Of a DNA stretch of 64,000 bases, positions 4,085 to 20,702 are shown one piece after another. Location of the stretch: positions 1 through 64,000 of the IMG/VR virus record IMGVR_UViG_3300045961_000282; one strand, written 5' to 3'. The notes beneath the pieces were generated by a model, which made no database searches, was not told the origin of the DNA, and saw only the letters and a list, made by a program, of their open reading frames with translations. Position numbers and translations under genes: made by a program. Positions within the stretch are counted from its first letter, which is position 1. Every line of letters begins with the position of its first letter. Source of the DNA: a virus.

Positions 4085-4111
4085 TTGTTCTGTTATCCGT
4101 TTCCCGTGGTT

Positions 4112-6619: not shown

Positions 6620-6980
6620 CCTCATCCCCCGAGGCCGAGAGCGGGTAGATCCCCAGCGGAATCCGCTTGCCCTTGTAGCGCTCGTTCGCCTGCGATCTGC
6701 GCTGTATCTGGAAGTCAATCCGCAGGCCCGATGCTCGGACATAGTGATCGGTGATGCTCACCTCGATGAAGTCGGCCAGCGGGTGCCGCGCCCGGCTCGG
6801 GAACAGCCGGTCGTACTCCTCATCGGCGAGCATCACCCGGATGTCCACGTCGCGGAAGTCGGCACGCTCAAGGGCGGACCCCACGAGGTAGGGGGTATCC
6901 AGCGCCTCCCTGACCACGAACGAGGCGAGGTCGATTTTGGCCAGTTCAGGGGCGTCGATGAAGCACCACTTGTCAGCCAT
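6612..6980 (-). CDS. minimal nucleotidyltransferase (MNT)-like protein
   Basis: LVGSALERADFRDVDIRVML matches the G-S-x9-D-x-D NTase-fold motif. Confidence 0.45.
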   Translation of the reverse strand: MADKWCFIDAPELAKIDLASFVVREALDTPYLVGSALERADFRDVDIRVMLADEEYDRLFPSRARHPLADFIEVSITDHYVRASGLRIDFQIQRRSQANERYKGKRIPLGIYPLSASGDEDG

Positions 6981-7332
6981 CGATGCCCCCGATCCGGCGA
7001 ATCTCGGCCTCGATGTCATTGAGCATGTCGTGCTCACGGGCATCCATGCACCAGTGGGCCACATCGCCGGACCCCGCGGGGTCGTAGATCTTGTGCCAAC
7101 TGGCGACGTATGTCGCGATCTCCTCCGTGAGGGCGCGGCGGATGTCCGGCTCGGTGTCGGCGCAGCAGAACTCCAACGCCCTCGCCTGCTCCTCGGCGCG
7201 GATCACCGGCTCGATGGCATCGATCACCGCCTCGGCGAAATCCCAGTCGCTGTCGGCGTGGCCAACAATCCCCTTGCTCCGGTTGGCGACGATGCCCCGG
7301 ACTGCGATCTCCACCAGTTCCTGCCGGTTCAC
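6973..7332 (-). CDS. hypothetical protein
   Basis: GTG start with GTGA overlap to the upstream stop at 7329-7332; contains RSKGIVGH. Confidence 0.45.
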   Translation of the reverse strand: MNRQELVEIAVRGIVANRSKGIVGHADSDWDFAEAVIDAIEPVIRAEEQARALEFCCADTEPDIRRALTEEIATYVASWHKIYDPAGSGDVAHWCMDAREHDMLNDIEAEIRRIGGIDG

Positions 7333-7679
7333 TCCACTCCCCCGATCTGTCGCACGTCCCAATCCACCACTCGCAGCGCGGCTGCATAGCCTTCGCGGTA
7401 CCGCTCGTCGGCGCCGAGCCGCGTCGATTCCACGTGCCTCTTCTCGATGGCCTGCACCATCTCCTCGGTCAGGTGCCGACGCTCCCTTGCAATGAACGAC
7501 GGGTCGCGCCACCCCAGTTCGATCATCTGCAACTGCACGGCAGGCTCGACCAGCGCGACGATCCGTTGGGCGATCGCGTCCGACGCGGCCCGGATTCCCT
7601 CCTTGTCGGTGATGTCCGAGAACAGGATCACCGACGCAGCCTCGCGCGACGCAGCCTCGATCAGTTCCTCGCGCGTCAC
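7329..7679 (-). CDS. hypothetical protein
   Basis: GTG start VTREELIEAAS with GTGA overlap to upstream stop (7676-7679). Confidence 0.45.
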   Translation of the reverse strand: MTREELIEAASREAASVILFSDITDKEGIRAASDAIAQRIVALVEPAVQLQMIELGWRDPSFIARERRHLTEEMVQAIEKRHVESTRLGADERYREGYAAALRVVDWDVRQIGGVE

Positions 7680-8068
7680 GGTGCGCCCCCTGCCCTGTGA
7701 ACGATGTCGGCATAGGTGCTGCACCGACAGGTGTAATCGTAATGCAGCAACTTGAATGGGCACTCGTCAACTACGGCCTTGCCGATTCGCTCTGTGACGG
7801 CGCTGCGCTCCTCGCTCAACAGGGTCGCAGCGATGTCGTTGGGGCTCCACAGGCATGAGCAGAGGTAGTTCAGCCCAGTGTCGTCCATCTCCCCGACGCC
7901 GCACGGCCCGCCGGGATTGGTGCCGTGCGGATCTATCCCATGCGAGCACGAAGGACACGTCACCACCGGCAGCGAGAATGGCTGGGGCGGGGCGGCAGAG
8001 CGCTCCCGTGCGCACCATGAACAGGGGCAGTCGGGATCGTGCGGGCCATCCATCGACGCGCGCCTCAT
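7676..8068 (-). CDS. hypothetical Cys-rich protein
   Basis: MDGPHDPDCPCSWCA...CPSCSHG...CRCSTY; multiple CxC/CxxC pairs. Confidence 0.45.
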   Translation of the reverse strand: MRRASMDGPHDPDCPCSWCARERSAAPPQPFSLPVVTCPSCSHGIDPHGTNPGGPCGVGEMDDTGLNYLCSCLWSPNDIAATLLSEERSAVTERIGKAVVDECPFKLLHYDYTCRCSTYADIVHRAGGAP

Positions 8069-8232
8069 TGCGCCACGCTCTGTCCGCGCTCCCACACCAC
8101 CGGATACTGCTGCCACGGCAGGTCCAGCAGCACCTTGATCACGAAGTCGGCGTCGACCGCGATGGCCGCGGTGAGGTTCGTGTAGATGCCGCACGGCGGC
8201 TCGCGGTCGTAGCAGGCGGCGTACAGGGCCAT
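8065..8232 (-). CDS. small hypothetical protein
   Basis: MALYAACYDREPPCGIYTNL...; ATGA coupling with the next ORF. Confidence 0.35.
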   Translation of the reverse strand: MALYAACYDREPPCGIYTNLTAAIAVDADFVIKVLLDLPWQQYPVVWERGQSVAQ

Positions 8233-8390
8233 CAGTTCTCCCGTTCGGATGAGTTGGACAGGGCAGCGAAGAACCAGTCGGAATCTGGCGGCGCCGGGCG
8301 CTTGGCGCGCCTGCGGTCGGCGAACGCGAACAATACGCCCGAGACGAAGTCCCACACGATCACCAGCAGCGCCAGCGCCGCGACCAGCAT
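8233..8390 (-). CDS. small hydrophobic (transmembrane) protein, about 52 aa
   Basis: MLVAALALLVIVWDFVSGVLFAFADRRRAKRP...; not in the ORF table (<60 aa); stop overlaps the next start (ATGA). Confidence 0.3.
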
Positions 8391-8401
8391 GAGCAACTCG
8401 A

Positions 8402-8695
8402 TCACAGCACCACCGCTTCCTCATCGTCATCGGCACTCAGCAGGTCCAGCACCTGACCCCGGACCCAGCGGGCCTCCGGGGTGTCGGCGGTCAGGGAACG
8501 CACCTTCGCGCGCAGCCCGATCAGGTCAGCGGTGAGCCGCCGGTTCGTCTGCTCCCAGAAGGAGATGGCCAGATCGGCCCGGTGCTTCTCGGCCTCGCGG
8601 GCGGCGTCGAGGTAGGAGCAGATGCACAGCACCGCCTCGTCGCCGGTCCCCACCTTGGCCATGTGGTCAAGGCACGCGGATTGATGTTCACTCAT
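8402..8695 (-). CDS. hypothetical protein
   Basis: Start MSEHQSACLDHMAKVGTG; ATGA overlap with 8692..8883. Confidence 0.45.
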   Translation of the reverse strand: MSEHQSACLDHMAKVGTGDEAVLCICSYLDAAREAEKHRADLAISFWEQTNRRLTADLIGLRAKVRSLTADTPEARWVRGQVLDLLSADDDEEAVVL

Positions 8696-8883
8696 CGCTT
8701 GGGTTCCTCTGTCGTTGGCGGGGCAACCAGTAGGGTCGCGCGGTAGGTCGGTTCCGACGGGCAGCCGTTGGCCGCGCACCACTTGGCCAGCCGTCGCGCG
8801 GCGATGTCCGGCGGGAAACCGCGGCCATCCGGGGCGACCTGCACAACTCGACCACACAGGCGGCATGTCTGCGTGGCCATCAC
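8692..8883 (-). CDS. small Cys-containing protein
   Basis: MMATQTCRLCGRVV...WCAANGCP; zinc-ribbon-like. Confidence 0.4.
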   Translation of the reverse strand: MMATQTCRLCGRVVQVAPDGRGFPPDIAARRLAKWCAANGCPSEPTYRATLLVAPPTTEEPKR

Positions 8884-9146
8884 AGGGCCTCATCGAACAC
8901 GGCAAGGACGCGCTGGTATCCGATGACTCCCAACCCACGGGGCAACGCCTCCACCTTCGCCCGCAGGTCTGCGCGGGTGGCCTCCACGATCCGCACTCGT
9001 TCCTCCAGCGTGAGCCCCGGCCCCTCGCGGACAGCGCGCCCCCGTTCGTCGGCGCGGATGCGGGCCACCCGTTCGCAGTCGCAGAACCGCGTCAGGTCGT
9101 CGGGCAGGAACTCCTGCGAGATGCACATCAGGTCGTGGTCACTCAT
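8880..9146 (-). CDS. paralog family member (Cys-type N-term MSDHDLMC/FCDCERVA plus DLRAKVEAL)
   Basis: Shared motifs with array members; ATGA coupling. Confidence 0.55.
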   Translation of the reverse strand: MSDHDLMCISQEFLPDDLTRFCDCERVARIRADERGRAVREGPGLTLEERVRIVEATRADLRAKVEALPRGLGVIGYQRVLAVFDEAL

Positions 9147-9472
9147 CGCCCTGATCTCCTCAGTTCATCCAGCACGGAATCGTGCGCCGACTTCCACACG
9201 TCCCGGATCAGCGCGTCGGCGGGCCGGGCGCGGTCGTCCGGGTCCGGCCCCTCGTGCATCCATGCGAGCAGGTGGAACGAGTCCATCCCGAGGAACGGCG
9301 GCGTGAGGTCTCGGGCGGCTGCCGCAGCGTCCTCCGCCCGTTGCCGCTCGCGCTCCACCACGCGAGCGATCAGGGCGCAGACGCATCCGAACTCGTGTGC
9401 ATAGCACAGCGGGTCATGGGCGAGTGTCTGCGACAGGTACTCGTCCCGCACCCACTTCTTGTCGGCGCTCAC
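9143..9472 (-). CDS. paralog family member (HDPLC...CVCALIARVVERER)
   Basis: Motif CxCALIARVVERER shared with 9469..9792. Confidence 0.5.
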   Translation of the reverse strand: MSADKKWVRDEYLSQTLAHDPLCYAHEFGCVCALIARVVERERQRAEDAAAAARDLTPPFLGMDSFHLLAWMHEGPDPDDRARPADALIRDVWKSAHDSVLDELRRSGR

Positions 9473-9792
9473 GGCTGGGCCTCCTCATCGAGCAGGGCGA
9501 GAACGGCATCAACACGCACCGTATCGATCACCTTGCCTGACGGCACCCACCCGGTGCCGTTCAGCCACTCGTACTCCATGCGCACCGCGTGGGCGGGCAG
9601 CATCACCACCTTTGCCCGCAGGTCGGCGAGGCGTTCTCGTGCAGCATCTAACTCTGAGTTGAGGCGGTGAACTTCACGCGAGCAGTGCTCGCGCTGCTCC
9701 CGCTCGCGCTCCACCACGCGGGCGATCAGGGCGCAGGTGCACTGCAAGGTCAGCGCGGACGCAGCCGGACACGGGGCGTCATGTGCGTTCAC
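9469..9792 (-). CDS. paralog family member (hybrid: CTCALIARVVERER, ADLRAKV, LALLDEEAQP)
   Basis: Both subfamily motifs present in one protein. Confidence 0.55.
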   Translation of the reverse strand: MNAHDAPCPAASALTLQCTCALIARVVEREREQREHCSREVHRLNSELDAARERLADLRAKVVMLPAHAVRMEYEWLNGTGWVPSGKVIDTVRVDAVLALLDEEAQP

Positions 9793-10037
9793 TGGGCACC
9801 ACCCATGAACGAACGAGCGATCTGCTCAGCGACATCCAGCCCGTCGAGGTACCACTGGTCAGCCGTTGTCGGGCGCTCGCCGAACTCGGCCTTGTCGGAC
9901 TGGTACCGGGCGTCGATGGCCGCCGCGATCTCCTCGGCGACAGCGGCGCGGATAGCAGCGACGCGCTCGCAGTCGCAGAACGCCGGGTTGGTCCACGACG
10001 GGTCAGCGCAGCGGCACATGGGGTCGTGGTCACTCAC
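9789..10037 (-). CDS. paralog family member (Cys type: MSDHDPMCRC...FCDCERVAAIRA)
   Basis: Motif shared with 8880..9146 and 13196..13507. Confidence 0.5.
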   Translation of the reverse strand: MSDHDPMCRCADPSWTNPAFCDCERVAAIRAAVAEEIAAAIDARYQSDKAEFGERPTTADQWYLDGLDVAEQIARSFMGGAQ

Positions 10038-10234
10038 CGCTGGGCCTCATCGAGCAGGGCGAGGACGTCGGAGCGGAGCAGCAACTCGCTCCCGAGAACC
10101 TCCCACGACGGCAGTGCCTCCACCTTCGCCCGCAGGTCGGCGTAAACGCGGGCGATCAGGGCGCACTGGCAGTCGGGGTCGAAGGGATGGTCACGATTGG
10201 GCTTCCACGGACACAACGGATGGTGGGTGGTCAC
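10034..10234 (-). CDS. paralog family member, small hybrid (HHPLC...CQCALIARV, ADLRAKVEAL, LALLDEAQR)
   Basis: GTG start with GTGA overlap at 10231-10234. Confidence 0.45.
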   Translation of the reverse strand: MTTHHPLCPWKPNRDHPFDPDCQCALIARVYADLRAKVEALPSWEVLGSELLLRSDVLALLDEAQR

Positions 10235-10707
10235 GGCCGGGCCTCCTCGTCGCGTGGCGCGATGGCGGAGCATGCGTACCCGTTCCCGGCGAGGCTGTGA
10301 TCGATCGTGTGATCCGACCACCAGTGGCCGTACTCCTCGTCGTCGTGCGGGTCCAGCCGTTCACACTGGTACCCCCCGGACTCCCGGTACTCACAGACGA
10401 ACCGGACGGACCGGTCGGCCACCGGGCACCGGTACGGGCGCTCTCCAGCCTCCTCATCGAACAAGGCGAGGACCCATCTCAGTGCTGCGTTGGAGTGCTC
10501 GTGGGTCGTCGGCAGCAGTGCCTCCACCTTCGCCCGCAGGTCGAGCAGGATCTCCTCCCGAAGGCACGCGCGGGTCACCTCGACCATCTCGCCTTGGATG
10601 ATCGGCTGGACGGTGTCGTAGACGGCAGCGATGATCTCCCGATCCGGGTGGTCGAATTTCCCCACGGCCTGCATCGCGGCGTCGATAGCACGCTCGCGGG
10701 CCGTCAT
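10231..10707 (-). CDS. paralog family A variant with C-terminal Cys/His-rich extension
   Basis: MTARERAIDAA, LDLRAKVEAL, LALFDEEAGE. Confidence 0.55.
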   Translation of the reverse strand: MTARERAIDAAMQAVGKFDHPDREIIAAVYDTVQPIIQGEMVEVTRACLREEILLDLRAKVEALLPTTHEHSNAALRWVLALFDEEAGERPYRCPVADRSVRFVCEYRESGGYQCERLDPHDDEEYGHWWSDHTIDHSLAGNGYACSAIAPRDEEARP

Positions 10708-11150
10708 GGCTTGGCCTCCTCATCGAACAGGGCGAAGACCTCATTGCGTTCGATCAGGGCGAATGTCGTCAACTCTCCGTCGATCATGCGCGCTCCAGTG
10801 CCGCGCGTCCGCAGCCCCTCCACCTTCGCCCGCAGGTCGGAGAGGCGGTCCTCCGCTCTGGCCGCGTCTGCCTGAGCAAGCCCCAGCGCCTCTACCGCTT
10901 CATCGCCGCGCCGCTGTTCGTCGGCGCGGATGATCGGCTCGGTTGCCGCGAGGACAGCCGCCGCGCGGCCCCGCGCCCAGTGGACCGCTGAGCACTCCCT
11001 CTCGGATTGATTGGCGAACGGCGCCCACTCGTCAACGAACAGGGTCGATTTGTGCGCCACGCAGACGTCTCCGAACCGCTTGCACGGGTTGTCGGTTCCT
11101 AGCAGGGCGTTCGCTCCAGCCTCAATGGCCCGCTCTCGGGCGCCGCTCAT
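10704..11150 (-). CDS. paralog family A member
   Basis: MSGARERAIEAG, EPIIRADE, SDLRAKVEGL, ALFDEEAKP. Confidence 0.55.
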   Translation of the reverse strand: MSGARERAIEAGANALLGTDNPCKRFGDVCVAHKSTLFVDEWAPFANQSERECSAVHWARGRAAAVLAATEPIIRADEQRRGDEAVEALGLAQADAARAEDRLSDLRAKVEGLRTRGTGARMIDGELTTFALIERNEVFALFDEEAKP

Positions 11151-11686
11151 CGTCCAACCTCGCAGTCGTACCGTTCCTCGTCCTTGATCCACACGCAGTT
11201 CTCATGCGTGTGCACGTAGTCCGGATTGTCGGCCTTCCCATCCAGCAGGGCGTCGATGGCCTCTGCCTCACGGCTGTCCCGCGGGTAGTCGCCAGCCTCC
11301 CCGCCCAACTCATCGAGCAGTTCAAGGGCCTTGGACTTCCAGCAGTCGCACGCTCGGCGCCGCCGACGGAGATCGCGCGGGCTGGCCCACGAGGCACACT
11401 CGTCCTCGCACAGTTCGCTCTGGATCTTCGTCCGCAGGTCGGTGAGGAATCCCTCGATCACCCGCGAGCACATGTGCGTCGCATCCGCCCTCCCCCGTTC
11501 ATCGGCTCGGATGATCGGCTCAGCGCCATCGAGAACCATACGCGCGATGCAGTCCGGGCAGTCCGCGACGCTTTGCGGATCCCATGTTCCCGCGCCGTGC
11601 TCGGGGATCATGCACTTCTCCCTGCGCCATCGCGCGGCGAGGTTGCTCGCCCCGGCCTCGACGGCGCAAACGCGGGCGTCGCTCAT
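11147..11686 (-). CDS. paralog family A variant, Cys-rich
   Basis: MSDARVCAVEAG, EPIIRADE, TDLRTKIQ; many Cys pairs; GGGAAGGG RBS. Confidence 0.5.
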   Translation of the reverse strand: MSDARVCAVEAGASNLAARWRREKCMIPEHGAGTWDPQSVADCPDCIARMVLDGAEPIIRADERGRADATHMCSRVIEGFLTDLRTKIQSELCEDECASWASPRDLRRRRRACDCWKSKALELLDELGGEAGDYPRDSREAEAIDALLDGKADNPDYVHTHENCVWIKDEERYDCEVGR

Positions 11687-11770
11687 TTCCGACCCTTCCC
11701 TGCTAGGAACTTCTGGTACGGGTGCCACGGCCCTGCCGAGTACCGGCGCGATGCCATCAGCGCCAACCGG

Positions 11771-12250
11771 TCATGTCGCGTCATCGATGGCTCCGTCATC
11801 AAGCAGGGAAAGGAGGTCATCGACAGCCGCGCGATAACCGACATTCCAAGGGCCAATCCCCTCTGACGCGGTCACCTTCGGCAGCGCCTCCACCTTTGCC
11901 CGCAGATCGGCAACGACGGTGCGACGGACTCCGACTTGGTAGTCGGCGTACACCTGTTCATCGACTGCGCGCCAAGCGCGAAATGCATCGTCAAGGATGA
12001 TCCGCTCGACCGCGTCAAGGACGGTGACGGCGATGGCCCGACGATCCCAGCCACCCTTGAACGTCGCCATCGCCTCCGACCCGGCCTCGATGGCCCGCTC
12101 GCGTGCATCGCCCATCGTCGATCTCTCCGCTCGACCGTCCTGCTCAGGCACGGGCCCCGGCCACGGCACCTCACCGAGCACCGGGCACCGGCCATCGCCG
12201 ACCAGACAGCCGTCCGGCATGCAGTCCATGTGGAGCCGAAGGTCACTCAT
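11771..12250 (-). CDS. paralog family member (Cys-type N-terminus fused to family A body)
   Basis: MSDLRLHMDCMPDGC... then MGDARERAIEAG ... ADLRAKVEAL. Confidence 0.5.
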   Translation of the reverse strand: MSDLRLHMDCMPDGCLVGDGRCPVLGEVPWPGPVPEQDGRAERSTMGDARERAIEAGSEAMATFKGGWDRRAIAVTVLDAVERIILDDAFRAWRAVDEQVYADYQVGVRRTVVADLRAKVEALPKVTASEGIGPWNVGYRAAVDDLLSLLDDGAIDDAT

Positions 12251-12599
12251 CGCCAGTCTCCTTGTCCAGCAGGGCGAGGACTTCGCGCAGGGCCACAGCC
12301 GCACCCACGTCGAACGTGTCGTGCGACACCACATACTCGGCGTCGCGTTCTTCAAGCAGTGCCTGCACCTTCGTCCGCAGGTCGGCGTAGATGTGGGCCC
12401 GAGATTCGATCTCGATCGTGGCTGCCAACTCCTCTGCCCACATGCTGCGGCGCTGACGGGAGAGCACGGCCTCCCGCTCGTCGGCGCGGATCACCGGCTC
12501 GGCGGCTTCGACGGCGGCTTCGACTCCGCCACGGATGTCGCTTGCCTTCAACCACGCTTGCCATCCAGCCTCGATGGCGTCGTCGCGGGCGTCGCTCAT
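12243..12599 (-). CDS. paralog family A member
   Basis: MSDARDDAIEAG, EPVIRADE, ADLRTKVQAL, LALLDKETGDE. Confidence 0.55.
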   Translation of the reverse strand: MSDARDDAIEAGWQAWLKASDIRGGVEAAVEAAEPVIRADEREAVLSRQRRSMWAEELAATIEIESRAHIYADLRTKVQALLEERDAEYVVSHDTFDVGAAVALREVLALLDKETGDE

Positions 12600-12811
12600 G
12601 TCAGGGCATCCTCTCGGGCACGACGGTTCTGCACGACGGTGAGCCGGAATGCCACGTTCAGTGGCAGGTCGGACGTGAACTGGCCCAGTGAGATGACCCC
12701 CACCAGACCGGAGAAAATCTCCGCCGATCCGACCAGTACGCCCCACTGGGCGCGACGCAGGAACGGCCTGCTGTGTGCGTGCCGCCACGTGGGCGTGAGC
12801 AGGCCCTTCAC
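12596..12811 (-). CDS. small membrane protein
   Basis: Hydrophobic WGVLVGSAEIFSGLVGVISLGQF; ATGA overlaps both sides. Confidence 0.4.
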   Translation of the reverse strand: MKGLLTPTWRHAHSRPFLRRAQWGVLVGSAEIFSGLVGVISLGQFTSDLPLNVAFRLTVVQNRRAREDALT

Positions 12812-13203
12812 GACTCCTCGCCCTTTTCCGGTACCACGCCAGACCCCTCATCGAGCATCGCGAGGACGCTGGCTAGGGAGCAGCAGCACGACAGCGCATA
12901 CGGCGCGTACGACAGGTAGCACGCCTCCGGGTGCTCTAGCCCGTCCACCTTCGCCCGTAGGTCGGCGAGGAGGGTCTCGCGGGCCTCGCGCTCCAGTTCG
13001 GGGAGCGAGCGCCGCCAGACCTCGCCGTCGATCTTGACCTGCGCGATCTGCTCGTCGGCGCGGATGATCGGCTCGACGGCGGCGAGAATCGTCTCCGCTG
13101 TCTCATACGCCTCCGCGATCGTCTGGCTGACGTAGTTGTCGCGGCGTCCGGAAAGCCACGCCCTCGCTCCGGCCTCGATGGCCTGCTCGCGTGCGTCACT
13201 CAT
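12808..13203 (-). CDS. paralog family A member
   Basis: MSDAREQAIEAGARA, EPIIRADE, ADLRAKVDGL. Confidence 0.55.
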   Translation of the reverse strand: MSDAREQAIEAGARAWLSGRRDNYVSQTIAEAYETAETILAAVEPIIRADEQIAQVKIDGEVWRRSLPELEREARETLLADLRAKVDGLEHPEACYLSYAPYALSCCCSLASVLAMLDEGSGVVPEKGEES

Positions 13204-13507
13204 GATCGACCACCTCCCACTCTCCAACCAACCGTCGCTCGATGCGCAGGTTTGGTTTGCCCCCGGAGTGCCGAGCACCCATGCGAACGATCTTCAGTCC
13301 GCGCAGGGCCTCCTCGAATGTCCTGAGCCTGCCTGCCACTCGACGCTCGTGGCCACCGTCCATCTTTGGGTCGCCGTCATAGACGATCTCGTACTCCCAC
13401 GCCTGCGTGGCGTCGGCCTTGGCCCGCTCGTCGTCGAGAGCGATTGGGGCGCACTCGCACCACTGCTCTGGTACATGACACTGGCACATCGGGTCGGGAT
13501 CACTCAT
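13196..13507 (-). CDS. paralog (Cys-type N-term MSDPDPMCQCH...WCECAP) with C-terminal W-E-V domain
   Basis: C-terminal NLRIERRLVGEWEVV resembles the C-terminus of 15576..16172. Confidence 0.5.
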   Translation of the reverse strand: MSDPDPMCQCHVPEQWCECAPIALDDERAKADATQAWEYEIVYDGDPKMDGGHERRVAGRLRTFEEALRGLKIVRMGARHSGGKPNLRIERRLVGEWEVVDHE

Positions 13508-13871
13508 CTCCGACCTCCTGCTCGAAGAGGGCGAGAACGGCGTCAAAACCGTCCGTGCGCCCGTTGTGCCACGTCGGAATGATGGCGTCCATGTGCCCAC
13601 CGCTGGCCTGCCTGCGGCTGGCGACGGACTCCTCGCGCAGCACTTCCACCTTCGCCCGTAGATCGGCGAGGACGTCACGCTGAGCGCTGTTCCGAGCATC
13701 GTGGACGACTTGCGTCCACTCGGGCAGCGTCATCCGTTCCCGCTCGTCGGCGCGGATGATCGGTTCTGCTGCGTCGATGACGGCAGCGAGGACTGCTGGA
13801 AGATCGAACGGGCTCAGGCCCGACACTGCCCTCGCCCCGGCCTCGATGGCCTGCTCGCGTGCGTCACTCAT
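13500..13871 (-). CDS. paralog family A member
   Basis: MSDAREQAIEAGARA, EPIIRADE, ADLRAKVEVL, LALFEQEVGDE. Confidence 0.55.
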   Translation of the reverse strand: MSDAREQAIEAGARAVSGLSPFDLPAVLAAVIDAAEPIIRADERERMTLPEWTQVVHDARNSAQRDVLADLRAKVEVLREESVASRRQASGGHMDAIIPTWHNGRTDGFDAVLALFEQEVGDE

Positions 13872-14106
13872 TTCCAACCTCCAGAGGCTCGTTGCCCTTC
13901 GGGTCCCATGGCCGGTGCCAGCGGACGCCCATCCAGAGGAATCCCTTGCACTGCTTCGGGTTCTTCCGGGTGCCTTTGCCGCCGAACTGGCAGCCGCGCT
14001 CCGGATAGACCCCGTGACATCCGTTCTCGTCGTGGCGGAACGCCATGTGCCCGCAGTCGTCGCAGAGCGCGCCGGGGCCGTACGGCTGCTCGGGTGCGTC
14101 ACTCAT
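13864..14106 (-). CDS. small Cys/His-rich protein
   Basis: MSDAPEQ...CDDCGHMAFRHDENGCHG...C...C; zinc-binding-like. Confidence 0.45.
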   Translation of the reverse strand: MSDAPEQPYGPGALCDDCGHMAFRHDENGCHGVYPERGCQFGGKGTRKNPKQCKGFLWMGVRWHRPWDPKGNEPLEVGNE

Positions 14107-14401
14107 TGCCAGCCTCCTCATCGAACGCGGCGAGAACTTCGGCGCGGTTCACCGCTGGCTCAGAGCCCATGTTCCATGTCAGCAGCCCCTCCACCTTCGC
14201 TCGCAGATCAGCGAGTAGGGCAGCACGCTCCCGTGGGTACAGGTCTACCCATTCCGCCATTTGCTCCCGCTCGTCGGCGCGGATGATCGGATCGATGGCT
14301 TCGTTGAGCATCTCGGCCAGCGCGCCGTCACCGATGGTCTTGTCGAACCGGGCAACTTCCAGCACGCGGCGCAGGGCGGTCAGTGGATCGCGGTCGGTCA
14401 T
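14099..14401 (-). CDS. paralog family A member
   Basis: EAIDPIIRADE, ADLRAKVEGL, FDEEAGNE; ATGA coupling. Confidence 0.55.
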   Translation of the reverse strand: MTDRDPLTALRRVLEVARFDKTIGDGALAEMLNEAIDPIIRADEREQMAEWVDLYPRERAALLADLRAKVEGLLTWNMGSEPAVNRAEVLAAFDEEAGNE

Positions 14402-14661
14402 GGTTTTCCCTCGGCAATCATTGCGGCCCACTCCGTGTCGTTGGCGAAATCGGAGGGAGTCTCCGCGTCGAGACGCAGGGGACGCCTGCGGTCCGGGTCG
14501 GCTGCGACGGCCCGGATCTCTGCGGCGATCTGCGCGCGCAGAGCCTTCTCCACCACGTCGACCACGGCCAGCCATGGGGTGTCACGATCCATGACGCGGC
14601 TCTTGGGGAAGTCGAGGTAGGCCCGGCGCGCCGCCGCCGCGACCTGCTCTCGTGTCGTCAT
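14398..14661 (-). CDS. hypothetical protein
   Basis: MTTREQVAAAARRAYLDF...; ATGA overlaps. Confidence 0.45.
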   Translation of the reverse strand: MTTREQVAAAARRAYLDFPKSRVMDRDTPWLAVVDVVEKALRAQIAAEIRAVAADPDRRRPLRLDAETPSDFANDTEWAAMIAEGKP

Positions 14662-14999
14662 TTGACATCTCCGATCAGGTGTTCGGACAACGCGCGGGCC
14701 AAGGGTTCGATGTCGGCCGCCAGCGATTGGGGGATCCCATTCACGAACCAGTCGGCGTATACATCGGGCACGAATGTGCAGTTCTTCGGGTCGTCGCATT
14801 CATGGGCATCGAAGGCGTCCGCGCCCTCCTGTGCGAGGTCGCGCATGATCGCCGTGAGCCGCTCGGGGGACACGATCTCGCGGAGCGCCGCGTTCACGAC
14901 CTCCACCGACACGTCGATGGCGGGCCACCGCCGCCAGTCACCCGAGTGCCGATCCAGCGCCCGCGCCCCCGCAGCGTATCCGTCCTGTCGGGCTGTCAT
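14658..14999 (-). CDS. hypothetical protein
   Basis: Real part MTARQDGYAAGARALDRH...; the 300-aa table ORF upstream is a shadow frame. Confidence 0.45.
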   Translation of the reverse strand: MTARQDGYAAGARALDRHSGDWRRWPAIDVSVEVVNAALREIVSPERLTAIMRDLAQEGADAFDAHECDDPKNCTFVPDVYADWFVNGIPQSLAADIEPLARALSEHLIGDVK

Positions 15000-15162
15000 G
15001 CCTGTCCCCCTCTGGTGCGATAACGCAAACGGTTCATGTGGGCACGTTGCACGGCGCGGCGCCTGACGGTCCAGACCCAGAACACCGTCTTGGGCCGGGC
15101 ATCGTCCGGCTCGCGCCACGGAATGACGATCGCGACGCTGCCCCGTCGCTGGTAACGGAAGG

Positions 15163-15594
15163 TCACGGCTGGGCCTCCCCGAGCATGTCGCTGACCATTT
15201 CGAGCGCGGCCACGTAGCCCGCCGCGAACTGCGCCGCGGGCTCGGGGGCGTCGCCGTGCGAATGTGGGCGCAGCGCCTCCACCTTCGCCAACAGGTCGCC
15301 AATGAGTTCGCGGCGGACGTGTGTGGGCAGGTGGTCGATGTGGTTCTCAAGTTCCTCGATGGTCCCTCGGGCACGCGCCCGCTCCTCGTCGCGAGCAATC
15401 GCCCAGACGGCATCGACGACGGCACCCGCCAACGCATCGCGCGCGATGGGGAGCAGGGACAGGGCGCCCAACACCCCACCCGCAGCCTCGATGGCGCGCT
15501 CACGGGCCGGGGCCGCGATGGGTTGTGGGGTGCAGTCGCTGCACGGGCAGTAGGTGCCATGGCCGACGCTGTACGTCACGACTGCACCTCCCAC
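15163..15594 (-). CDS. paralog family A variant
   Basis: ARERAIEAAGG, GDLLAKVEAL. Confidence 0.5.
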   Translation of the reverse strand: MGGAVVTYSVGHGTYCPCSDCTPQPIAAPARERAIEAAGGVLGALSLLPIARDALAGAVVDAVWAIARDEERARARGTIEELENHIDHLPTHVRRELIGDLLAKVEALRPHSHGDAPEPAAQFAAGYVAALEMVSDMLGEAQP

Positions 15595-16172
15595 GGCCCG
15601 ACGACGCGGCGCTCGATGCGCAGGTTGACCTTGGGGTCGTGCGTGCTGCGCAGAACCACGCTGTCATACGCGGCGCGCGCATTCGACAGTGTGGTGAACG
15701 GACCGCCGATCTGGCGGCGGGCGTAACTGCCGTCCATCCGTGGGTCGCCGTCGCAGACGATGACCCACTCCTGCTGCACGGTGGCCGAAGGGCTGGCCGC
15801 ATCGAGGGGGCCGAACAGGACTTCGGCGATGCCGACGACGTAGCCCGCGGCGTGCATCCGCTGGCCGTAACCATACGGATCCTCGCGCATGTCCTCGACC
15901 GGCTTCAGTGCGTCCCGCTTGCCCTTGGCCTCGGTCAGCATCTCGTCGACCTTCCCCTGAAGGTTGGCCAGCAGGGTGGTCTGAATGGCCGAGCGCATCC
16001 GCGGCCACGTCGACTCGGCGGCGCGCCGCCCCTCTTCGTAGAAGGTCGGCTCCACGATGTCGATCACCGCGTCGGCCATGTCGCCAAAGGTCGCCGCATC
16101 CCCCTTCGCGTCGATCACGCGCATCAGCGCCTTGATGCTGCGGGCGCGCGCGTTTCTGCGGGCGGTGCTCAT
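15576..16172 (-). CDS. paralog family A variant with C-terminal W-E-V domain
   Basis: DAVIDIVEPTFYEEGRRAA, LLANLQGKVDEML, C-terminal NLRIERRVVGPWEVQS. ATGA overlap at 16169-16172; N-terminal 220 aa of the table ORF rejected as off-frame. Confidence 0.5.
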   Translation of the reverse strand: MSTARRNARARSIKALMRVIDAKGDAATFGDMADAVIDIVEPTFYEEGRRAAESTWPRMRSAIQTTLLANLQGKVDEMLTEAKGKRDALKPVEDMREDPYGYGQRMHAAGYVVGIAEVLFGPLDAASPSATVQQEWVIVCDGDPRMDGSYARRQIGGPFTTLSNARAAYDSVVLRSTHDPKVNLRIERRVVGPWEVQS

Positions 16173-16474
16173 GCGTCCCCTCCGGTGTACTTCTTGAGTC
16201 GTTCGTTCTGGCTGCGGCCAAGGTTCGGGCACCCATCCCGTCGGTGCTTGGCCACCCCGCTGTTGGACACGAACCGCGCCCCGCATGTCTGGCAGGCGCA
16301 CGGGTGCCCCCCCAGATGGCGGGCCTGCCACAGCATCGGCCGCTCCACGCCGTCGTAGCCGGTGGCGCCACAGGTCAGGCAGGACACTCGCGCGCTCTGG
16401 CCGAGGTACGCGAACTGGTCGCGCCATCCCTCGGGCGGGTTGAGCATGATGCGCCGGGCATCGACGTCCCTCAT
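16169..16474 (-). CDS. zinc-finger-like protein
   Basis: CLTCG...HPCACQTCGARF...H...C pattern. Confidence 0.45.
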   Translation of the reverse strand: MRDVDARRIMLNPPEGWRDQFAYLGQSARVSCLTCGATGYDGVERPMLWQARHLGGHPCACQTCGARFVSNSGVAKHRRDGCPNLGRSQNERLKKYTGGDA

Positions 16475-16884
16475 CGCTCCCCCTCCCGACCGGGGATGTT
16501 GGCCAGCAGCCACCTGACGACGGCCCGGTCGTGGATCCACCAGTCGTAGAGACTGTTGCTCGACAGGTCGAGGGCAACCACGGCCTCAACAGGGGAGTCG
16601 AACCACCGGATCTGGTTACGCAGGTCGTAGCACAGCGACACCATCTCCGACCAGTCGGCAGAGTCGTCGTCCGGGAACGGAGTCGCGGCCTCGAAGGCGT
16701 CGCAGCCCGAGCACGACCCGTACCCGATGACGCTGATGCCGAACCGATCTCCGTCGGACAGGATGTAGACCTCGTCGCCCTGCCACGAACCGAACCGCTC
16801 CGAAGCGGTGATCTCATAGCCCCACGACGCGACAAGACCCCCCAGCGAGGGGTCCACCTCGTACCAGTCAGGCTTCGAAATCAC
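16471..16884 (-). CDS. hypothetical protein
   Basis: MISKPDWYEVDPSLGG...; protein-like composition. Confidence 0.5.
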   Translation of the reverse strand: MISKPDWYEVDPSLGGLVASWGYEITASERFGSWQGDEVYILSDGDRFGISVIGYGSCSGCDAFEAATPFPDDDSADWSEMVSLCYDLRNQIRWFDSPVEAVVALDLSSNSLYDWWIHDRAVVRWLLANIPGREGER

Positions 16885-16902
16885 CCATGAAGCATAGCAC
16901 GG

Positions 16903-18962: not shown

Positions 18963-19183
18963 TTCCGGTCCTTCCGTTCAGCCTGAGCGGCTTCGAGCAG
19001 AACGCCTGCGGCAGCGTACAAGCGGTTCGCAGCCCCGGGGTGCAGGGAGCCGACGGAGTCCGCCAGCGCCTCGGCCTGCTCGGCGTAGGTGCCCAACAGC
19101 GACGCCCGCAGGCCCACATGGGCAGCGCACCAGCGCTTGTGGGCCCCCTCGCCGCGACAGCCGCCGCAGTCGCTCACAGCCAC
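18959..19183 (-). CDS. small hypothetical protein
   Basis: Start uncertain. Confidence 0.3.
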   Translation of the reverse strand: MAVSDCGGCRGEGAHKRWCAAHVGLRASLLGTYAEQAEALADSVGSLHPGAANRLYAAAGVLLEAAQAERKDRK

Positions 19184-19515
19184 ACCTCCATGCGGTTCGG
19201 CCCTCCACCGATGGGCGGGTTGAGCAGTTCCAGTACGTCCTTGATCGGGCACTCGCAGTGCCCGTAATCGCTGAGCGCCGCCGGGCAGCAGTCGGCGTGG
19301 GGCAGGTCCTCAACCTTGGCGCGCAGTTGGTCCAGCCACGCCTGCTCGGCGGACGTGGCCCGCTTCTCGGTCGGGGTCACCGCCTCCTCCTTTCCTGTCG
19401 GACTGCTCAGGGCGAAGATGCCCAGCGCGCCGATTGCCACGATGGAGCCGAATGCCACGAAGAACAGCATCGTCGCCGAGATCAGTGCGGCAATCGCCAC
19501 CGCGACCTCAGCCAC
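19174..19515 (-). CDS. membrane protein with QLRAKVEDL motif
   Basis: N-terminal TM helix plus the family motif LDQLRAKVEDLP and CC...C.C. Confidence 0.5.
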   Translation of the reverse strand: MAEVAVAIAALISATMLFFVAFGSIVAIGALGIFALSSPTGKEEAVTPTEKRATSAEQAWLDQLRAKVEDLPHADCCPAALSDYGHCECPIKDVLELLNPPIGGGPNRMEVWL

Positions 19516-19969
19516 GCTCAGGGTCCTCGGGCATGGGCAACAGACCCCCCTCGCGCAGGGCGACCTCGGCGGCCTTGCCGCGCATCCAGTCGGCGGCGCT
19601 GCTGGGGCCGTAGTTGCGCAGGTCGGGGATGAAGGTCGTCTTGACCGCCGCAGCGATGTCGCGGGCCGTCTCAGTGCGGACCACCTGCGCGGGCCACTTG
19701 TCGCCGGGGAACGCGCCGGTCAGCGGCCCGGCCACGCGCACCCGGTAGCACCCGGCGGCGCAGGAGTGGTGGCACGCGCCGCCGTCCGGGCAGCGGCGGG
19801 CCCTCGGGTCGCTCTCGCCCAGCACCTGCACCAGCACCGCAGGGTCGGTCAGCGTCGCCGCGACGATGGCCACGCCCAGCGGGCCGTATTCGTCACCCAG
19901 TCGCTCCAGTGCCTCAACCAGATTCGGGGACGCATTCACGTAGGTCGCATCCACCCATGAATCACTCAT
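19508..19969 (-). CDS. hypothetical protein
   Basis: Start MSDSWVDATYVNASPNLVEALERLGDEYG. Confidence 0.45.
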   Translation of the reverse strand: MSDSWVDATYVNASPNLVEALERLGDEYGPLGVAIVAATLTDPAVLVQVLGESDPRARRCPDGGACHHSCAAGCYRVRVAGPLTGAFPGDKWPAQVVRTETARDIAAAVKTTFIPDLRNYGPSSAADWMRGKAAEVALREGGLLPMPEDPERG

Positions 19970-20123
19970 AGCCCGCCTCCGTGAAGATCTTCCACTCGCC
20001 CGCCGCGTAGCCGAGGATCGCGACCCCGCCCTTGATGAACAGCAGCGCCCCGTCGACGATGGCTGCCGAGTCGGCGCCGACATCCTCCATCTCGCCGTTG
20101 GCAACCGTGACGATCCACCTCAC
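19962..20123 (-). CDS. small hypothetical protein
   Basis: GTG start with GTGA overlap. Confidence 0.3.
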   Translation of the reverse strand: MRWIVTVANGEMEDVGADSAAIVDGALLFIKGGVAILGYAAGEWKIFTEAGYE

Positions 20124-20350
20124 AGATCCTCCAGCAGTTCGAGCACGTCGGACTTCCACACCAGCGGCGACGGGTCATGGTCGGTCAGCGCGAAGGCGGC
20201 GGCGGGCAGCCCCGCGACCTGCTCGCGCAGGCGCGCCGCGAACCGACGGGTCAGTTCCTTGTCGATGCTGCGGATCGTGGTGCACTCGCACCACGAATCC
20301 CCGAGCCGATGGCTGGCCACTGGGCACAGGGGATGGTGCCCCTCAGCCAT
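20120..20350 (-). CDS. Cys-type paralog (MAEGHHPLCP...WCEC)
   Basis: H-x-P-x-C...CxC pattern. Confidence 0.45.
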   Translation of the reverse strand: MAEGHHPLCPVASHRLGDSWCECTTIRSIDKELTRRFAARLREQVAGLPAAAFALTDHDPSPLVWKSDVLELLEDL

Positions 20351-20702
20351 CAGTGCCCCCCATCAGTGCCGCAGCCGCCTCCACATGCCTGCCGACGCGG
20401 GCGCTCAGCACCTCGGTCAGTAGCGCCGCCGCATCGGCCCGCGCCAGCCGGGCGATCAGGATGTCGCGGTTGGTCAGCGACGCCGCGGCAAGGGCCACGT
20501 TCTGTGAACCATACGTCTGCCCGAGCATCTGCAGCGCCGACAGCAACTCCGGTTCCGCGGCTCTGGTTCCGGTGTCCAGCGGCTCCAGTGTCGTCAACAG
20601 GGCGGCGGCAAGGTGCCGGGCGACCGAGCGCGATTCCGACGGCAGCACCATCGGCCATGCGTCGGATTCGATGCGCTCCAGTTCTGCGCGGATGTCGGTC
20701 AT
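20343..20702 (-). CDS. hypothetical protein
   Basis: MTDIRAELERIESDAWPMVLPSE... Confidence 0.45.
   Translation of the reverse strand: MTDIRAELERIESDAWPMVLPSESRSVARHLAAALLTTLEPLDTGTRAAEPELLSALQMLGQTYGSQNVALAAASLTNRDILIARLARADAAALLTEVLSARVGRHVEAAAALMGGTDG

What the first reader, a model, noticed from the sequence alone, without database searches (positions are those of the whole stretch)
8402..16172. Tandem array of at least 15 diversified paralogous small genes in two subfamilies with hybrid members, translationally coupled
Across about 7.5 kb, nearly every gene encodes an acidic 65-180-aa protein built from a shared motif set. Family A has MSDAREQAIEAG(A/S) at the N-terminus, EPIIRADE(R/Q) in the middle, ADLRAKVEAL near the C-terminus and an acidic tail such as VLALLDEEAxP or FDEEAGNE. 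Interleaved subfamily B members are smaller with an N-terminal MSDHDPMC-x-C ... F-C-D-C-E-R-V-A or C-x-C-A-L-I-A-R-V Cys3(His) module. Several genes are hybrids: 9469..9792 and 10034..10234 carry both CxCALIARV and ADLRAKVEAL; 11771..12250 is a Cys N-terminus plus family A body; 13196..13507 and 15576..16172 add a shared W-E-V C-terminal domain. This implies repeated duplication and module shuffling. Nearly all junctions are ATGA/GTGA overlaps. I do not recognise these motifs from any characterised phage protein family. A hypervariable, amplified family of small acidic proteins in a phage early region is the architecture expected for an anti-defence or host-takeover arsenal (decoys or DNA mimics), but this is inference only.
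Basis: partly seen in the sequence, partly recalled or inferred. Interest (0 to 1): 0.85.

Follow-up and report, generated by a model that had tools for sequence, protein, structure and literature searches.

The report
Modular small-protein gene array in actinophage
A novel phage of high-GC Gram-positive bacteria carries about 20 back-to-back genes for small helical proteins assembled from a few interchangeable modules; the family is undescribed and its function is unknown, though it may act on host proteins.

Summary
On the minus strand, window 6973-20362 holds a near-continuous chain of small genes joined by 4/8-nt ATGA/GTGA overlaps. Sixteen ORFs match a family HMM; more join by BLAST or motif. 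They form one superfamily: a core helix (EPIIRADER), a second helix (ADLRAKVEAL) and a third (VLALLD-acidic tail). N-caps (helix REQAIEAGA or Cys/His knuckle) and C-terminal parts (a ~68-aa beta-beta-alpha-beta 'WEV' domain, also found stand-alone elsewhere) are exchangeable. AlphaFold gives a confident 4-helix model with no informative structural neighbour. Pfam, PHROGs, NCBIfam, PADLOC, PDB sequences, 50,697 GenBank phages and 185,579 GTDB genomes gave no hit. About 290 metagenomic proteins match, in actinophage-like contigs, often in arrays of 5-8. The array is old: members are 30-45% identical, each is closer to an external ortholog than to its neighbours, and dN/dS is below 1. Motif blocks show excess synonymous identity and 24-35-nt exact tracts, suggesting conversion. 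The acidic tail also encodes the next gene's Shine-Dalgarno and start. The anti-defence or host-takeover role remains inference; a DNA-mimic role is unlikely.

The parts
6973..7332 (-). g00a, 119 aa: family member (N-cap helix + AIEPVIRAEEQ core helix, divergent C-part); lies outside the reported interval
   Evidence: HMM E 1e-26 (this sequence is in the HMM's training set); broader family HMM (built without it) E 2.7e-11; BLASTP to g13, g17, g15
7329..7679 (-). g00b, 116 aa: weak N-type relative
   Evidence: HMM E 0.0096; BLASTP to g00a 2e-3
7676..8053 (-). g00c, 125 aa: Cys-rich protein (11 Cys) with an MDGPHDPDCPC leader and three CxC motifs
8232..8405 (-). 57-aa transmembrane microprotein; its GTG start overlaps the g01 stop by 4 nt (GTGA); not a family member
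   Evidence: GC3 0.88
8402..8695 (-). g01, 97 aa: C..H..CxC leader + C-module-like (DLIGLRAKVRSL ... VLDLLSADDDEE); motif-level member only
   Evidence: HMM E 0.098
8692..8883 (-). g02, 63 aa: basic CxxC...C protein, unrelated interleaved gene
8880..9146 (-). g03, 88 aa: Cys knuckle (HD-x-x-C...CDC) + RIRADERGR + ADLRAKVEAL + VLAVFDEAL
9143..9472 (-). g04, 109 aa: Cys/His knuckle + CVCALIARVVERER helix + unrelated C-part
   Evidence: BLASTP to g05 3e-7; 57-nt DNA repeat D14
9469..9792 (-). g05, 107 aa: knuckle CTCALIARV + C-module (ADLRAKVVML ... VLALLDEEAQP); C-part is closest to external P0007
9789..10037 (-). g06, 82 aa: knuckle (HDPMCRC...FCDCERVA) + AIRAAVAEEIAAAID helix, also seen in P0016 and P0092
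10034..10234 (-). g07, 66 aa: minimal knuckle + C-module (CQCALIARVYADLRAKVEAL...VLALLDEAQR)
10231..10707 (-). g08, 158 aa: full N+C member with a Cys/His-rich C-terminal extension
   Evidence: HMM 6.5e-27
10704..11150 (-). g09, 148 aa: full N+C member; closest ortholog is external P0128 (82 bits, vs 46 bits to the best paralog)
11147..11686 (-). g10, 179 aa: full member with Cys inserts and a C-terminal extension shared with P0035 and P0043
11771..12250 (-). g11, 159 aa: Cys-containing leader + full N+C body
   Evidence: HMM 6e-42
12243..12599 (-). g12, 118 aa: full N+C member (P0034-like)
12596..12811 (-). 71-aa very basic (pI 11.8) ORF that exactly fills the g13/g12 gap with 4-nt overlaps on both sides; not a family member
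12808..13203 (-). g13, 131 aa: full N+C member with a CCC insert before the last helix
13196..13507 (-). g14, 103 aa: Cys knuckle + WEV domain (beta-beta-alpha-beta)
   Evidence: dN/dS 0.07 vs the L010 ortholog
13500..13871 (-). g15, 123 aa: full N+C member; AlphaFold model has 4 helices, pLDDT 88
13864..14106 (-). g16, 80 aa: Cys/His-rich interleaved gene, no detectable relation to the family
14099..14401 (-). g17, 100 aa: full N+C member
14398..14661 (-). g18, 87 aa: weak N-type relative
   Evidence: HMM E 0.005-0.007; BLASTP to g00a 1e-4
14658..14999 (-). g19, 113 aa: interleaved acidic gene, only marginal similarity (g11 1e-3, g06 1e-3)
14996..15166 (-). 56-aa very basic (pI 12.0) ORF that exactly fills the g20/g19 gap with 4-nt overlaps; not a family member
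15163..15594 (-). g20, 143 aa: CPCSDC leader + full N+C body
   Evidence: HMM 1e-34
15576..16172 (-). g21, 198 aa: N-module + divergent C-helix (LLANLQGKVDEM) + WEV domain
19174..19719 (-). Stop-to-stop ORF, start not determined: transmembrane segment + C-module (DQLRAKVEDL ... H..C..CEC ... VLELL); outlying member
   Evidence: HMM 2e-6; sequence
20120..20362 (-). ~76-aa knuckle + C-module protein (HHPLC...CEC ... LREQVAGL ... VLELLEDL); outlying member
   Evidence: HMM 6e-5; sequence

Best explanation
SHOWN.
- The region encodes an undescribed superfamily of small (66-198 aa), cytoplasmic, mildly acidic, mostly alpha-helical proteins. It was found only in actinophage-like metagenomic contigs.
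- Each protein is built from exchangeable modules. The N-cap is either a helix (M-S-D-A-R-E-Q-A-I-E-A-G-A) or a Cys/His knuckle (H-D-P-x-C...C-x-C). Next comes a core helix (E-P-I-I-R-A-D-E-R) and a variable linker.
- The C-terminal part is one of three: the pair of helices A-D-L-R-A-K-V-E-A-L and V-L-A-L-L-D-E-E; a ~68-aa beta-beta-alpha-beta 'WEV' domain; or an A-E-E-I-A-A-A-I-E helix.
- About 20 members lie head-to-tail with 4/8-nt overlaps. No promoter-like site was found and terminator-like sites do not exceed shuffled controls. They are therefore very probably made from one long polycistronic mRNA by coupled translation.
- The conserved acidic tail is dual-coding: it contains the next gene's Shine-Dalgarno and start codon.
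- The array is ancient and maintained by selection, not a recent amplification.

INFERRED.
- Short conserved nucleotide blocks act as homology patches for unequal crossing-over and gene conversion. This would generate the hybrid and half-genes.
- The conserved positions (Ala/Gly-rich helix 1; I-I, L-x-x-x-V-x-x-L and V-L-x-L-L spacings; paired charges) look like a common helical-bundle scaffold. The linkers, which vary in length and sometimes carry Cys, would be the diversified functional surfaces.
- The most likely role is a co-expressed panel of binding proteins, each aimed at a different host (or competing-element) protein during infection. That means host takeover or counter-defence by stoichiometric binding, not catalysis.
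For: - Gene structure and coupling.
- Paralogy and module map.
- Structure: g15 has 4 helices at pLDDT 88. The WEV domain is beta-beta-alpha-beta at pLDDT 70-90.
- No catalytic or known domain. No informative fold neighbour.
- Family exists elsewhere under selection: 227 representatives at E<=1e-3 in 1.84 billion, 290 proteins with the broader profile, dN/dS below 1.
- Each paralog scores higher against an external ortholog than against any neighbour. This argues for individually retained, non-redundant members.
- Arrays with full, N-only and C-only genes recur in other contigs: 8, 7, 7 and 5 copies.
- Modules recombine: WEV occurs alone, with an N-half, or with a Cys leader. Breakpoints fall at IRADE and ADLRAKVE.
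- Motif blocks show 0.686 synonymous codon identity vs 0.484 +/- 0.024 expected, and array-specific codons such as CGG-GCG. Exact 24-35-nt tracts occur between non-adjacent paralogs.
- Tail = SD + start, in the window and in external loci.
- Context is always the small-gene, non-structural arm of actinophage-like contigs. One homolog lies about 1.2 kb from an Acb2/Tad1-hairpin gene.
Against: - There is no direct evidence for any binding partner or phenotype.
- No anti-defence family hit was found, and no HTH (aca-like) regulator lies in or next to the array.
- Tight translational coupling and the existence of half-proteins fit a hetero-oligomeric complex at least as well.
- Transcription timing is unknown. 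The sigma-70 consensus scan is not calibrated for actinobacterial or phage promoters.
- dS is saturated, so dN/dS values for family A are rough.
- Metal binding by the Cys/His knuckle is inferred from spacing only. AlphaFold did not model it confidently.
- Excess codon identity in motifs could partly reflect selection on mRNA or translation, not gene conversion.
Confidence: 0.4

Rival explanations
1. Hetero-oligomeric assembly. The paralogs and the half-proteins (N-only, C-only, knuckle+C) co-assemble into mixed helical bundles or filaments. Translational coupling sets the stoichiometry. The complex would serve the phage's own biology, for example as a replication or transcription scaffold, a chaperone or a compartment, rather than targeting varied host proteins.
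For: - Uninterrupted 4/8-nt overlaps along the chain.
- Heptad-like conserved hydrophobic spacing and a 40-residue central helix.
- Separate N-only and C-only genes recur across loci.
Against: - Copy number varies from 1 to 16 between related contigs. That is unusual for an obligate complex of fixed composition.
- Members are individually exchanged between phages.
- 4-nt overlaps are the norm for all small genes in actinophage arms, including the unrelated interleaved genes.
Confidence: 0.22
2. Largely neutral or selfish expansion ('gene nursery'). The motif blocks and the portable tail-SD-start junction make these genes easy to duplicate and recombine without disturbing expression of downstream genes. 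The array would persist with little contribution to fitness.
For: - The dual-coding junction cassette recurs (ATGAGTGA five times).
- Conversion-like tracts.
- Truncated and hybrid members are common.
- The family is rare overall.
Against: - dN/dS is below 1, and 0.07 for the WEV domain.
- Motifs are conserved across about 290 proteins from many samples.
- Each subfamily has orthologs elsewhere.
- No frameshifted or stop-containing copies were seen in the chain.
- Phage genomes are under strong size constraint (general knowledge).
Confidence: 0.15
3. DNA-mimic decoys (one of the first reader's suggestions). The acidic helical proteins imitate DNA to block restriction, BREX or other DNA-binding defences, as Ocr and ArdA do.
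For: Net negative charge of -3 to -14 and pI 4.3-5.5. All-alpha fold.
Against: - Charge density is modest: D+E is about 15-25%, with 9-16% K+R.
- There is no Pfam hit to ArdA, Ocr or any other family.
- The most conserved residues include arginines and a lysine (R of IRADER, R and K of LRAKVE), which is not expected of a phosphate mimic.
- No mimic appears among the fold neighbours.
Confidence: 0.06
4. Metal- or redox-dependent regulators. The Cys/His-knuckle members, and members with Cys inserts, bind Zn or an Fe-S cluster. They would act like WhiB-type or zinc-finger transcription modulators of host or phage genes.
For: Recurrent H-D-P-x-C...C-x-C spacing directly capping a helix, at the N-terminus and before the last helix. 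WhiB genes are common in related contigs.
Against: - No Pfam WhiB or zinc-finger hit.
- The spacing differs from the WhiB C-x(n)-C-x2-C-x5-C pattern (general knowledge).
- Many full members have no Cys at all: g12, g15, g17.
- Net acidic charge argues against nucleic-acid binding.
Confidence: 0.07

Closest known systems
Multigene families of large DNA viruses (e.g. ASFV MGF110/360/505)
   Same: Tandem arrays of many diverged paralogs in one orientation. Copy number varies between related genomes. Truncated and chimeric members occur. Individual functions are mostly unknown but host-directed. (This comparison rests on general knowledge.)
   Different: The proteins here are much smaller (66-198 aa). 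They are bacterial-virus genes joined by translational coupling, built from swappable sub-domain modules, and share no sequence or fold with those families.
Phage anti-defence gene clusters (anti-CRISPR / Acb / Tad-type islands)
   Same: Small, acidic, non-enzymatic proteins without database matches, clustered in the accessory or early arm. One homolog lies about 1.2 kb from an Acb2/Tad1-hairpin gene in L007.
   Different: Anti-defence islands normally hold unrelated genes, not up to 16-20 paralogs, and Acr loci usually end in an HTH aca gene. No such gene or known anti-defence family was detected here. No functional test exists.
Gene amplification 'accordions' (poxvirus K3L; SegB-driven segmental amplification of anti-defence loci in T-even phage, PMC13096335 abstract)
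   Same: Tandem repetition of a host-interaction locus by recombination. There are signs of ongoing recombination or conversion between copies.
   Different: Accordions are recent, near-identical copies that expand and collapse. These copies are 30-45% identical, with saturated synonymous sites outside the motifs. Each has a closer ortholog in other phages.
Bacillus phage SPO1 host-takeover module and similar early small-gene operons
   Same: A long run of small, mostly unknown, co-directional genes in the non-structural region, presumed to redirect host processes. (General knowledge.)
   Different: The SPO1 takeover genes are not a paralogous family. Here most genes derive from one modular superfamily.
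Orphan module arrays of polymorphic toxin/immunity loci
   Same: Tandem diverged paralogs plus truncated or chimeric cassettes, generated by recombination at short conserved junction sequences. (General knowledge.)
   Different: No toxin domain, secretion-associated gene or immunity family was detected. The context is a phage, not a bacterial competition locus.

Membership tests
Any curated protein family (Pfam-A, PHROGs v4, NCBIfam, PADLOC, PDB sequences) | Significant HMM match above the curated or E<=1e-3 threshold | tested here: not met
   Window members: best hits are MmeI_C E 0.098, CDGP E 0.077 and phrog_21958 E 0.0076, all below cut-offs. Forty-three family members vs PHROGs: 1 weak hit. 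Family profile vs PDB sequences: best E 0.15.
CDGP domain (PF24238), for the WEV module | Match to the Pfam model across family members | tested here: not met
   Only 1 of 7 WEV-domain proteins matched, at E 0.16 and below the 24.3-bit cut-off.
DNA mimics (Ocr, ArdA/KlcA) | Sequence or fold membership in the ArdA or Ocr families | tested here: not met
DNA mimics (Ocr, ArdA/KlcA) | Very high density of surface carboxylates with few basic residues | tested here: not met
   pI 4.3-5.5; D+E about 15-25% with 9-16% K+R; the conserved motif residues include Arg and Lys.
Anti-CRISPR / anti-defence locus | Adjacent HTH regulator (aca) or a known anti-defence gene in the same cluster | tested here: not met
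   No HTH or anti-defence Pfam in window genes 4257-24322 that were scanned. An Acb2/Tad1-hairpin gene lies near a homolog only in L007.
Anti-CRISPR / anti-defence locus | Demonstrated inhibition of a defence system | not testable with these tools
   Requires expression of members in hosts with defined defence systems.
Genomic accordion (recent tandem amplification) | Near-identical copies; closest relative of each copy is another copy in the same array | tested here: not met
   Pairwise identity is 30-45%. For the 15 members with both an external and an internal hit, the best external hit equals or exceeds the best internal paralog in 14 (tie for g08; g06 lower). pS is 0.42-0.60 between paralogs.
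Viral multigene family (tandem diverged paralogs with variable copy number) | Many diverged paralogs in tandem, same orientation | tested here: met
   16 HMM-positive ORFs on the minus strand between 6973 and 20362.
Viral multigene family (tandem diverged paralogs with variable copy number) | Copy number differs between related genomes; truncated or chimeric members occur | tested here: met
   1-8 copies in 21 other loci vs 16 here; N-only and C-only genes are frequent. Chimeras with WEV: P0191, P0194, g14, g21.
WhiB-like Fe-S proteins (for the Cys group) | Pfam Whib match and the C-x(n)-C-x2-C-x5-C motif | tested here: not met
   No Whib hit. The observed spacing is H-D-P-x-C ... C-x-C.
Translationally coupled operon | Stop/start overlaps with an SD inside the upstream gene | tested here: met
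   ATGA/GTGA or ATGAGTGA at 20 of 25 called junctions, plus the overlaps of the gap-filling ORFs. A GGAGG-like SD lies 6-10 nt upstream. Actual coupling is not testable here.

The most novel reading that the evidence does not exclude
The array is a combinatorial 'binder library' of a new fold family. A conserved helical scaffold carries diversified linkers, with Zn-knuckle or WEV-domain add-ons. The phage shuffles these by recombination at short conserved nucleotide blocks. The dual-coding tail-SD-start junction would make every module swap automatically expression-competent. In effect this would be a built-in, heritable diversification system for host-targeting or counter-defence proteins in uncultured actinophages. 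It would differ from DGRs, which rely on reverse transcription, and from accordions, which rely on recent amplification.
Probability: 0.15. Interest if true: 0.85.

Novelty: new variant of a known kind. Interest (0 to 1): 0.55.

Why it matters
Tandem families of 16-20 diverged paralogs are typical of giant eukaryotic viruses and are unusual in tailed phages. This one belongs to a protein superfamily absent from Pfam, PHROGs, NCBIfam, PADLOC, the PDB, all 50,697 GenBank phages searched and 185,579 GTDB genomes. Even so, it recurs in hundreds of metagenomic proteins.

It offers three things:
- A clean natural example of sub-domain module shuffling in phage 'dark matter', with identifiable breakpoints.
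- An example of a conserved protein tail that is constrained because it encodes the next gene's ribosome-binding site and start. This is a caution for motif-based inference.
- A defined candidate set for discovering new host-takeover or counter-defence activities in Actinomycetota phages, where few such proteins are known.

If the proteins turn out to be a structural hetero-oligomer or dispensable, the finding is still a new protein family, but of ordinary interest.

Tried and rejected
- Megablast of the region, and tblastn of g15, P0041 and P0022 against GenBank phages: no match.
- Pfam, PHROGs, NCBIfam and PADLOC scans of members and of 43 family sequences: nothing above threshold.
- The weak CDGP, MmeI_C, Mg_chelatase and phrog_21958 hits were followed up and rejected as noise.
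- Family profile against PDB sequences: best E 0.15.
- Pattern scans of GTDB genomes, run twice, found no relatives. IMG/VR gave 0, then 2 loci.
- The promoter/terminator scan gave nothing above shuffles.
- Literature searches for the motifs and for phage tandem paralog families found no description.
- 'The repeats are a DNA-level artefact, not genes' was rejected on the basis of SDs, GC3, intact frames, external protein homologs and dN/dS below 1.
- 'The motif nucleotide conservation is a universal DNA/RNA signal' was rejected for ADLRAKVE because other contigs use different synonymous codons.
- Recent amplification was rejected.

Full report
**Context.** The window is 66-68% GC and comes from a 206,257-bp JGI metagenome contig. 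It carries tail-tip, tail-collar and collagen-like fibre genes, an N6/N4 methylase and an AAA_25 primase/helicase. The primase/helicase's best cultured relatives are Arthrobacter phages at about 42% identity. There are no tRNAs. The element is therefore a novel tailed actinophage or a phage-like element. I did not inspect the rest of the contig.

**Check of the observation.**
- All genes of the finding lie on the minus strand. I fixed starts from the N-terminal peptides. Nearly every start has a GGAGG-like Shine-Dalgarno 6-10 nt upstream and overlaps the preceding stop as ATGA/GTGA (4 nt) or ATGAGTGA (8 nt).
- 20 of 25 called junctions are such overlaps. The three largest apparent gaps hold small ORFs with coding-type GC3 (0.77-0.88), joined to the upstream gene by a 4-nt overlap.
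- The two gaps inside the array are filled exactly: 12596-12811 and 14996-15166 encode very basic 71- and 56-aa products. ORF 8232-8405 encodes a transmembrane microprotein.
- Coding is thus continuous from about 16884 to 6973, except for one 84-nt spacer and a few short spacers of about 11 nt or less.
- No sigma-70-like promoter was found, and terminator-like sites do not exceed shuffled controls. This fits one long polycistron, although that scan is not tuned to actinobacterial promoters.

**Paralogy.**
- All-vs-all BLASTP in a 26-protein database gives E down to 2e-16 among g12, g13 and g15. It connects g08-g13, g15, g17, g20, the N-part of g21 and g00a as full-length members.
- It also connects g03, g05 and g07 through their C-halves, and g03, g06, g14, g04, g05 and g07 through a Cys-containing N-terminus.
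- An HMM of the full members finds 14 strong ORFs in the window and none on the plus strand. A broader family HMM finds 16.
- Members outside the reported interval are g00a (6973-7332), a membrane-anchored C-module ORF (19174-19719) and a knuckle+C ORF (20120-20362).
- Identities are only 30-45%, so DNA-level repeats are confined to the motif blocks.

**Anatomy.**
- The modules are:
  - N-cap helix MSDAREQAIEAGA;
  - core helix (V)DA(V)EPIIRADERE;
  - helix ADLRAKVEAL;
  - helix VLALLD followed by an acidic tail;
  - an alternative N-cap, H-D-P-x-C...C-x-C, which abuts an IRADER-like helix directly (g03 RIRADERGR vs g10 IIRADERGR; g04/g05 CxCALIARVVERER);
  - a ~68-aa WEV domain (WEYEIVYDGDP...NLRIERRLVGPWEV);
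  - an AEEIAAAIE helix (g06, P0016, P0092).
- AlphaFold2 with a 21-sequence alignment gives g15 as four helices (4-17, 24-47, 50-89, 100-121) at mean pLDDT 88.
- For g14 the WEV domain is beta-beta-alpha-beta at pLDDT 70-90. The Cys leader is not modelled confidently.
- The proteins are moderately acidic, pI 4.3-5.5.

**Is it a known family?** No. Pfam, PHROGs, NCBIfam and PADLOC have no match above threshold. PDB sequences give none at E<0.1. There is no tblastn match in 50,697 GenBank phages with three different queries, and no literature mention of the motifs.

**Distribution.**
- An exhaustive HMMER search of 1.84 billion cluster representatives found 227 proteins at E<=1e-3, about 10 of them from this contig. 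A broader profile found 290. All are metagenomic hypotheticals of about 90-170 aa with the same motif set.
- None was found in 185,579 GTDB species genomes. Only 2 were found in 2.9 million IMG/VR contigs, and 12 more loci in the metagenome scan.
- Longer contigs are actinophage-like, with integrase/cro, WhiB, GP88, Thy1, DUF7352 and lysis genes. The homologs always sit in runs of small overlapping genes. In L007 one lies about 1.2 kb from an Acb2/Tad1-hairpin gene.
- Several of these contigs share other genes with the window.

**Arrays elsewhere.** HMM scans of all fetched loci show that multi-copy arrays mixing full, N-only and C-only genes are typical: 8 in L026, 7 in L025, 7 in L005, 5 in L019 and 1-3 elsewhere. 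The window, with 16, is the largest. A WEV gene lies within about 0.5 kb of family genes in L006 and L011 as well.

**Module shuffling is real.** The WEV domain occurs alone (P0190, P0192, P0193, 70-72 aa). It is fused to an N-half in P0191 and P0194, joined right after the (P)IIR(D)E motif. It is fused to a Cys leader in g14 and P0194, and to a nearly full family A body in g21.

**Age and selection.**
- For the 15 members with both an external and an internal hit, the best external protein scores at least as high as the best neighbouring paralog in 14 (tie for g08; g06 lower). Examples: g09 82 vs 46 bits, g10 66 vs 38, g17 68 vs 43, g14 108 vs 56.
- The paralogs are therefore old subfamilies shared among phages, not a recent local burst.
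- Nei-Gojobori estimates give dN/dS of 0.07 (g14 vs L010), 0.30 (g14 vs L011) and about 0.48 (g09 vs L009), with dS saturated. This is purifying selection.

**Nucleotide-level features.**
- In conserved columns, identical residues use the same codon in 68.6% of pairs, against 48.4 +/- 2.4% expected from local codon usage. Outside the motifs it is 50.7% vs 46.2%.
- For DLRAKVE the window copies use CGG-GCG, while homologs in other contigs use CGC-GCC or CGT-GCC. The uniformity is therefore array-specific.
- Exact 24-35-nt tracts link non-adjacent paralogs only in motif blocks: g13/g15 start, g07/g08, g15/g17. I read this as short-tract gene conversion or unequal crossing-over at these blocks. 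This is an inference.
- The acidic tail is dual-coding. D-E-E-A is GAT GAG GAG GCC, which is the next gene's SD. ATGAGTGA encodes D-E-stop in one frame and M-S-D in the next.
- In other contigs L-I-D-G-G-S-D-x-stop is ...GAC GGG GGC AGY GAT Gnn TGA, which likewise holds the SD and the ATG. Part of the conservation of the tail and of the 'MSD' start is thus imposed by translational coupling.

**Function.**
- Nothing indicates an enzyme, a nucleic-acid binder or a membrane protein. The one exception is the membrane-anchored outlier.
- The conserved positions look structural: Ala/Gly helix 1, I-I, L-x-x-x-V-x-x-L, V-L-x-L-L and charge pairs. The linkers vary in length and content.
- My best reading, at confidence about 0.4, is a co-expressed panel of small binding proteins aimed at different host or competitor proteins (takeover or counter-defence). 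It would be kept diverse by retention of old subfamilies and by module exchange.
- The main rival, at about 0.22, is a hetero-oligomeric assembly of paralogs and half-proteins.
- A largely neutral, recombination-prone expansion (about 0.15) is disfavoured by dN/dS and by cross-phage conservation.
- DNA mimicry (about 0.06) is disfavoured by the modest charge density, the conserved Arg/Lys residues and the lack of any ArdA or Ocr signal.
- A metal or redox regulator role for the Cys members (about 0.07) has no family support.

**Verdict.** It is correct on duplication, shuffling, coupling and novelty of the family. It is incorrect on 'amplified/hypervariable' in the sense of a recent expansion, and untested on anti-defence. 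This is a new modular protein superfamily forming the kind of tandem multigene family known from large viruses but unusual in tailed phages. Interest is moderate to high for phage genomics, limited by the absence of any functional evidence.

Noticed in passing
window 12596-12811 and 14996-15166 (minus strand): Two very basic micro-ORFs (71 aa, pI 11.8; 56 aa, pI 12.0) fit exactly between acidic family genes, with 4-nt overlaps on both sides and coding-like GC3. They have no detectable relatives in the array. Their strong positive charge contrasts with the acidic neighbours.
   Followed up: partly
window 8232-8405 and 8065-8233 (minus strand): A 57-aa single-pass transmembrane microprotein and a further ~55-aa ORF occupy the apparent 348-nt gap between g01 and g00c.
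   Followed up: partly
window 19174-19719 (minus strand): This ORF combines a hydrophobic transmembrane segment with a family C-module (DQLRAKVEDL ... H..C..CEC ... VLELL). It is a membrane-anchored variant of the otherwise cytoplasmic family.
   Followed up: partly
window 17331-18083 (minus strand): The ORF has a Cys-rich region (CPGC...C..C...CxxC) followed by an IDAVMPMVRAEAEK helix resembling the family core helix. Its C-terminus matches Pfam DUF7736 (E 1e-7). The true start was not determined.
   Followed up: no
window 433-1860 and 1841-4213 (minus strand): An N6/N4 DNA methylase (E 6e-26) overlaps by 20 nt a 790-aa ORF with a weak GHKL ATPase (HATPase_c_3) hit. This may be a phage-borne methylase/ATPase pair. 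There is no PADLOC match for the ATPase.
   Followed up: partly
window 43548-45608 (plus strand): A 686-aa ORF has a weak Intein_splicing match spanning residues 156-466. The host protein of the putative intein was not identified.
   Followed up: no
window 38912-40015, 40068-40868, 41872-42720, 55802-56767 (minus strand): Several collagen-repeat, tail-collar and YadA-head-like fibre genes suggest a complex, possibly multi-receptor tail fibre set.
   Followed up: no
window junctions g17>g16>g15>g14>g13 and g12>g11: The identical 8-nt junction ATGAGTGA recurs five times. It encodes '...D/N-E-stop' and 'M-S-D...' in two frames, so the conserved MSD N-terminus and the (G)DE/NE C-terminus constrain each other.
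   Followed up: yes
L007 8478-8810 and 10377-10796; L008 12271-13549: In related contigs the family lies near an Acb2/Tad1-hairpin gene, a WDGH-domain gene and repeated DUF7352 genes. A DUF7352-like ORF also exists in the window at about 30722-31105.
   Followed up: partly
window 24802-26415 (plus strand), 30982-31857 (minus strand): A polysaccharide deacetylase-domain protein lies on the opposite strand, and an SPFH/Band-7 protein is shared with L005. Both are unusual accessory genes for a phage.
   Followed up: no
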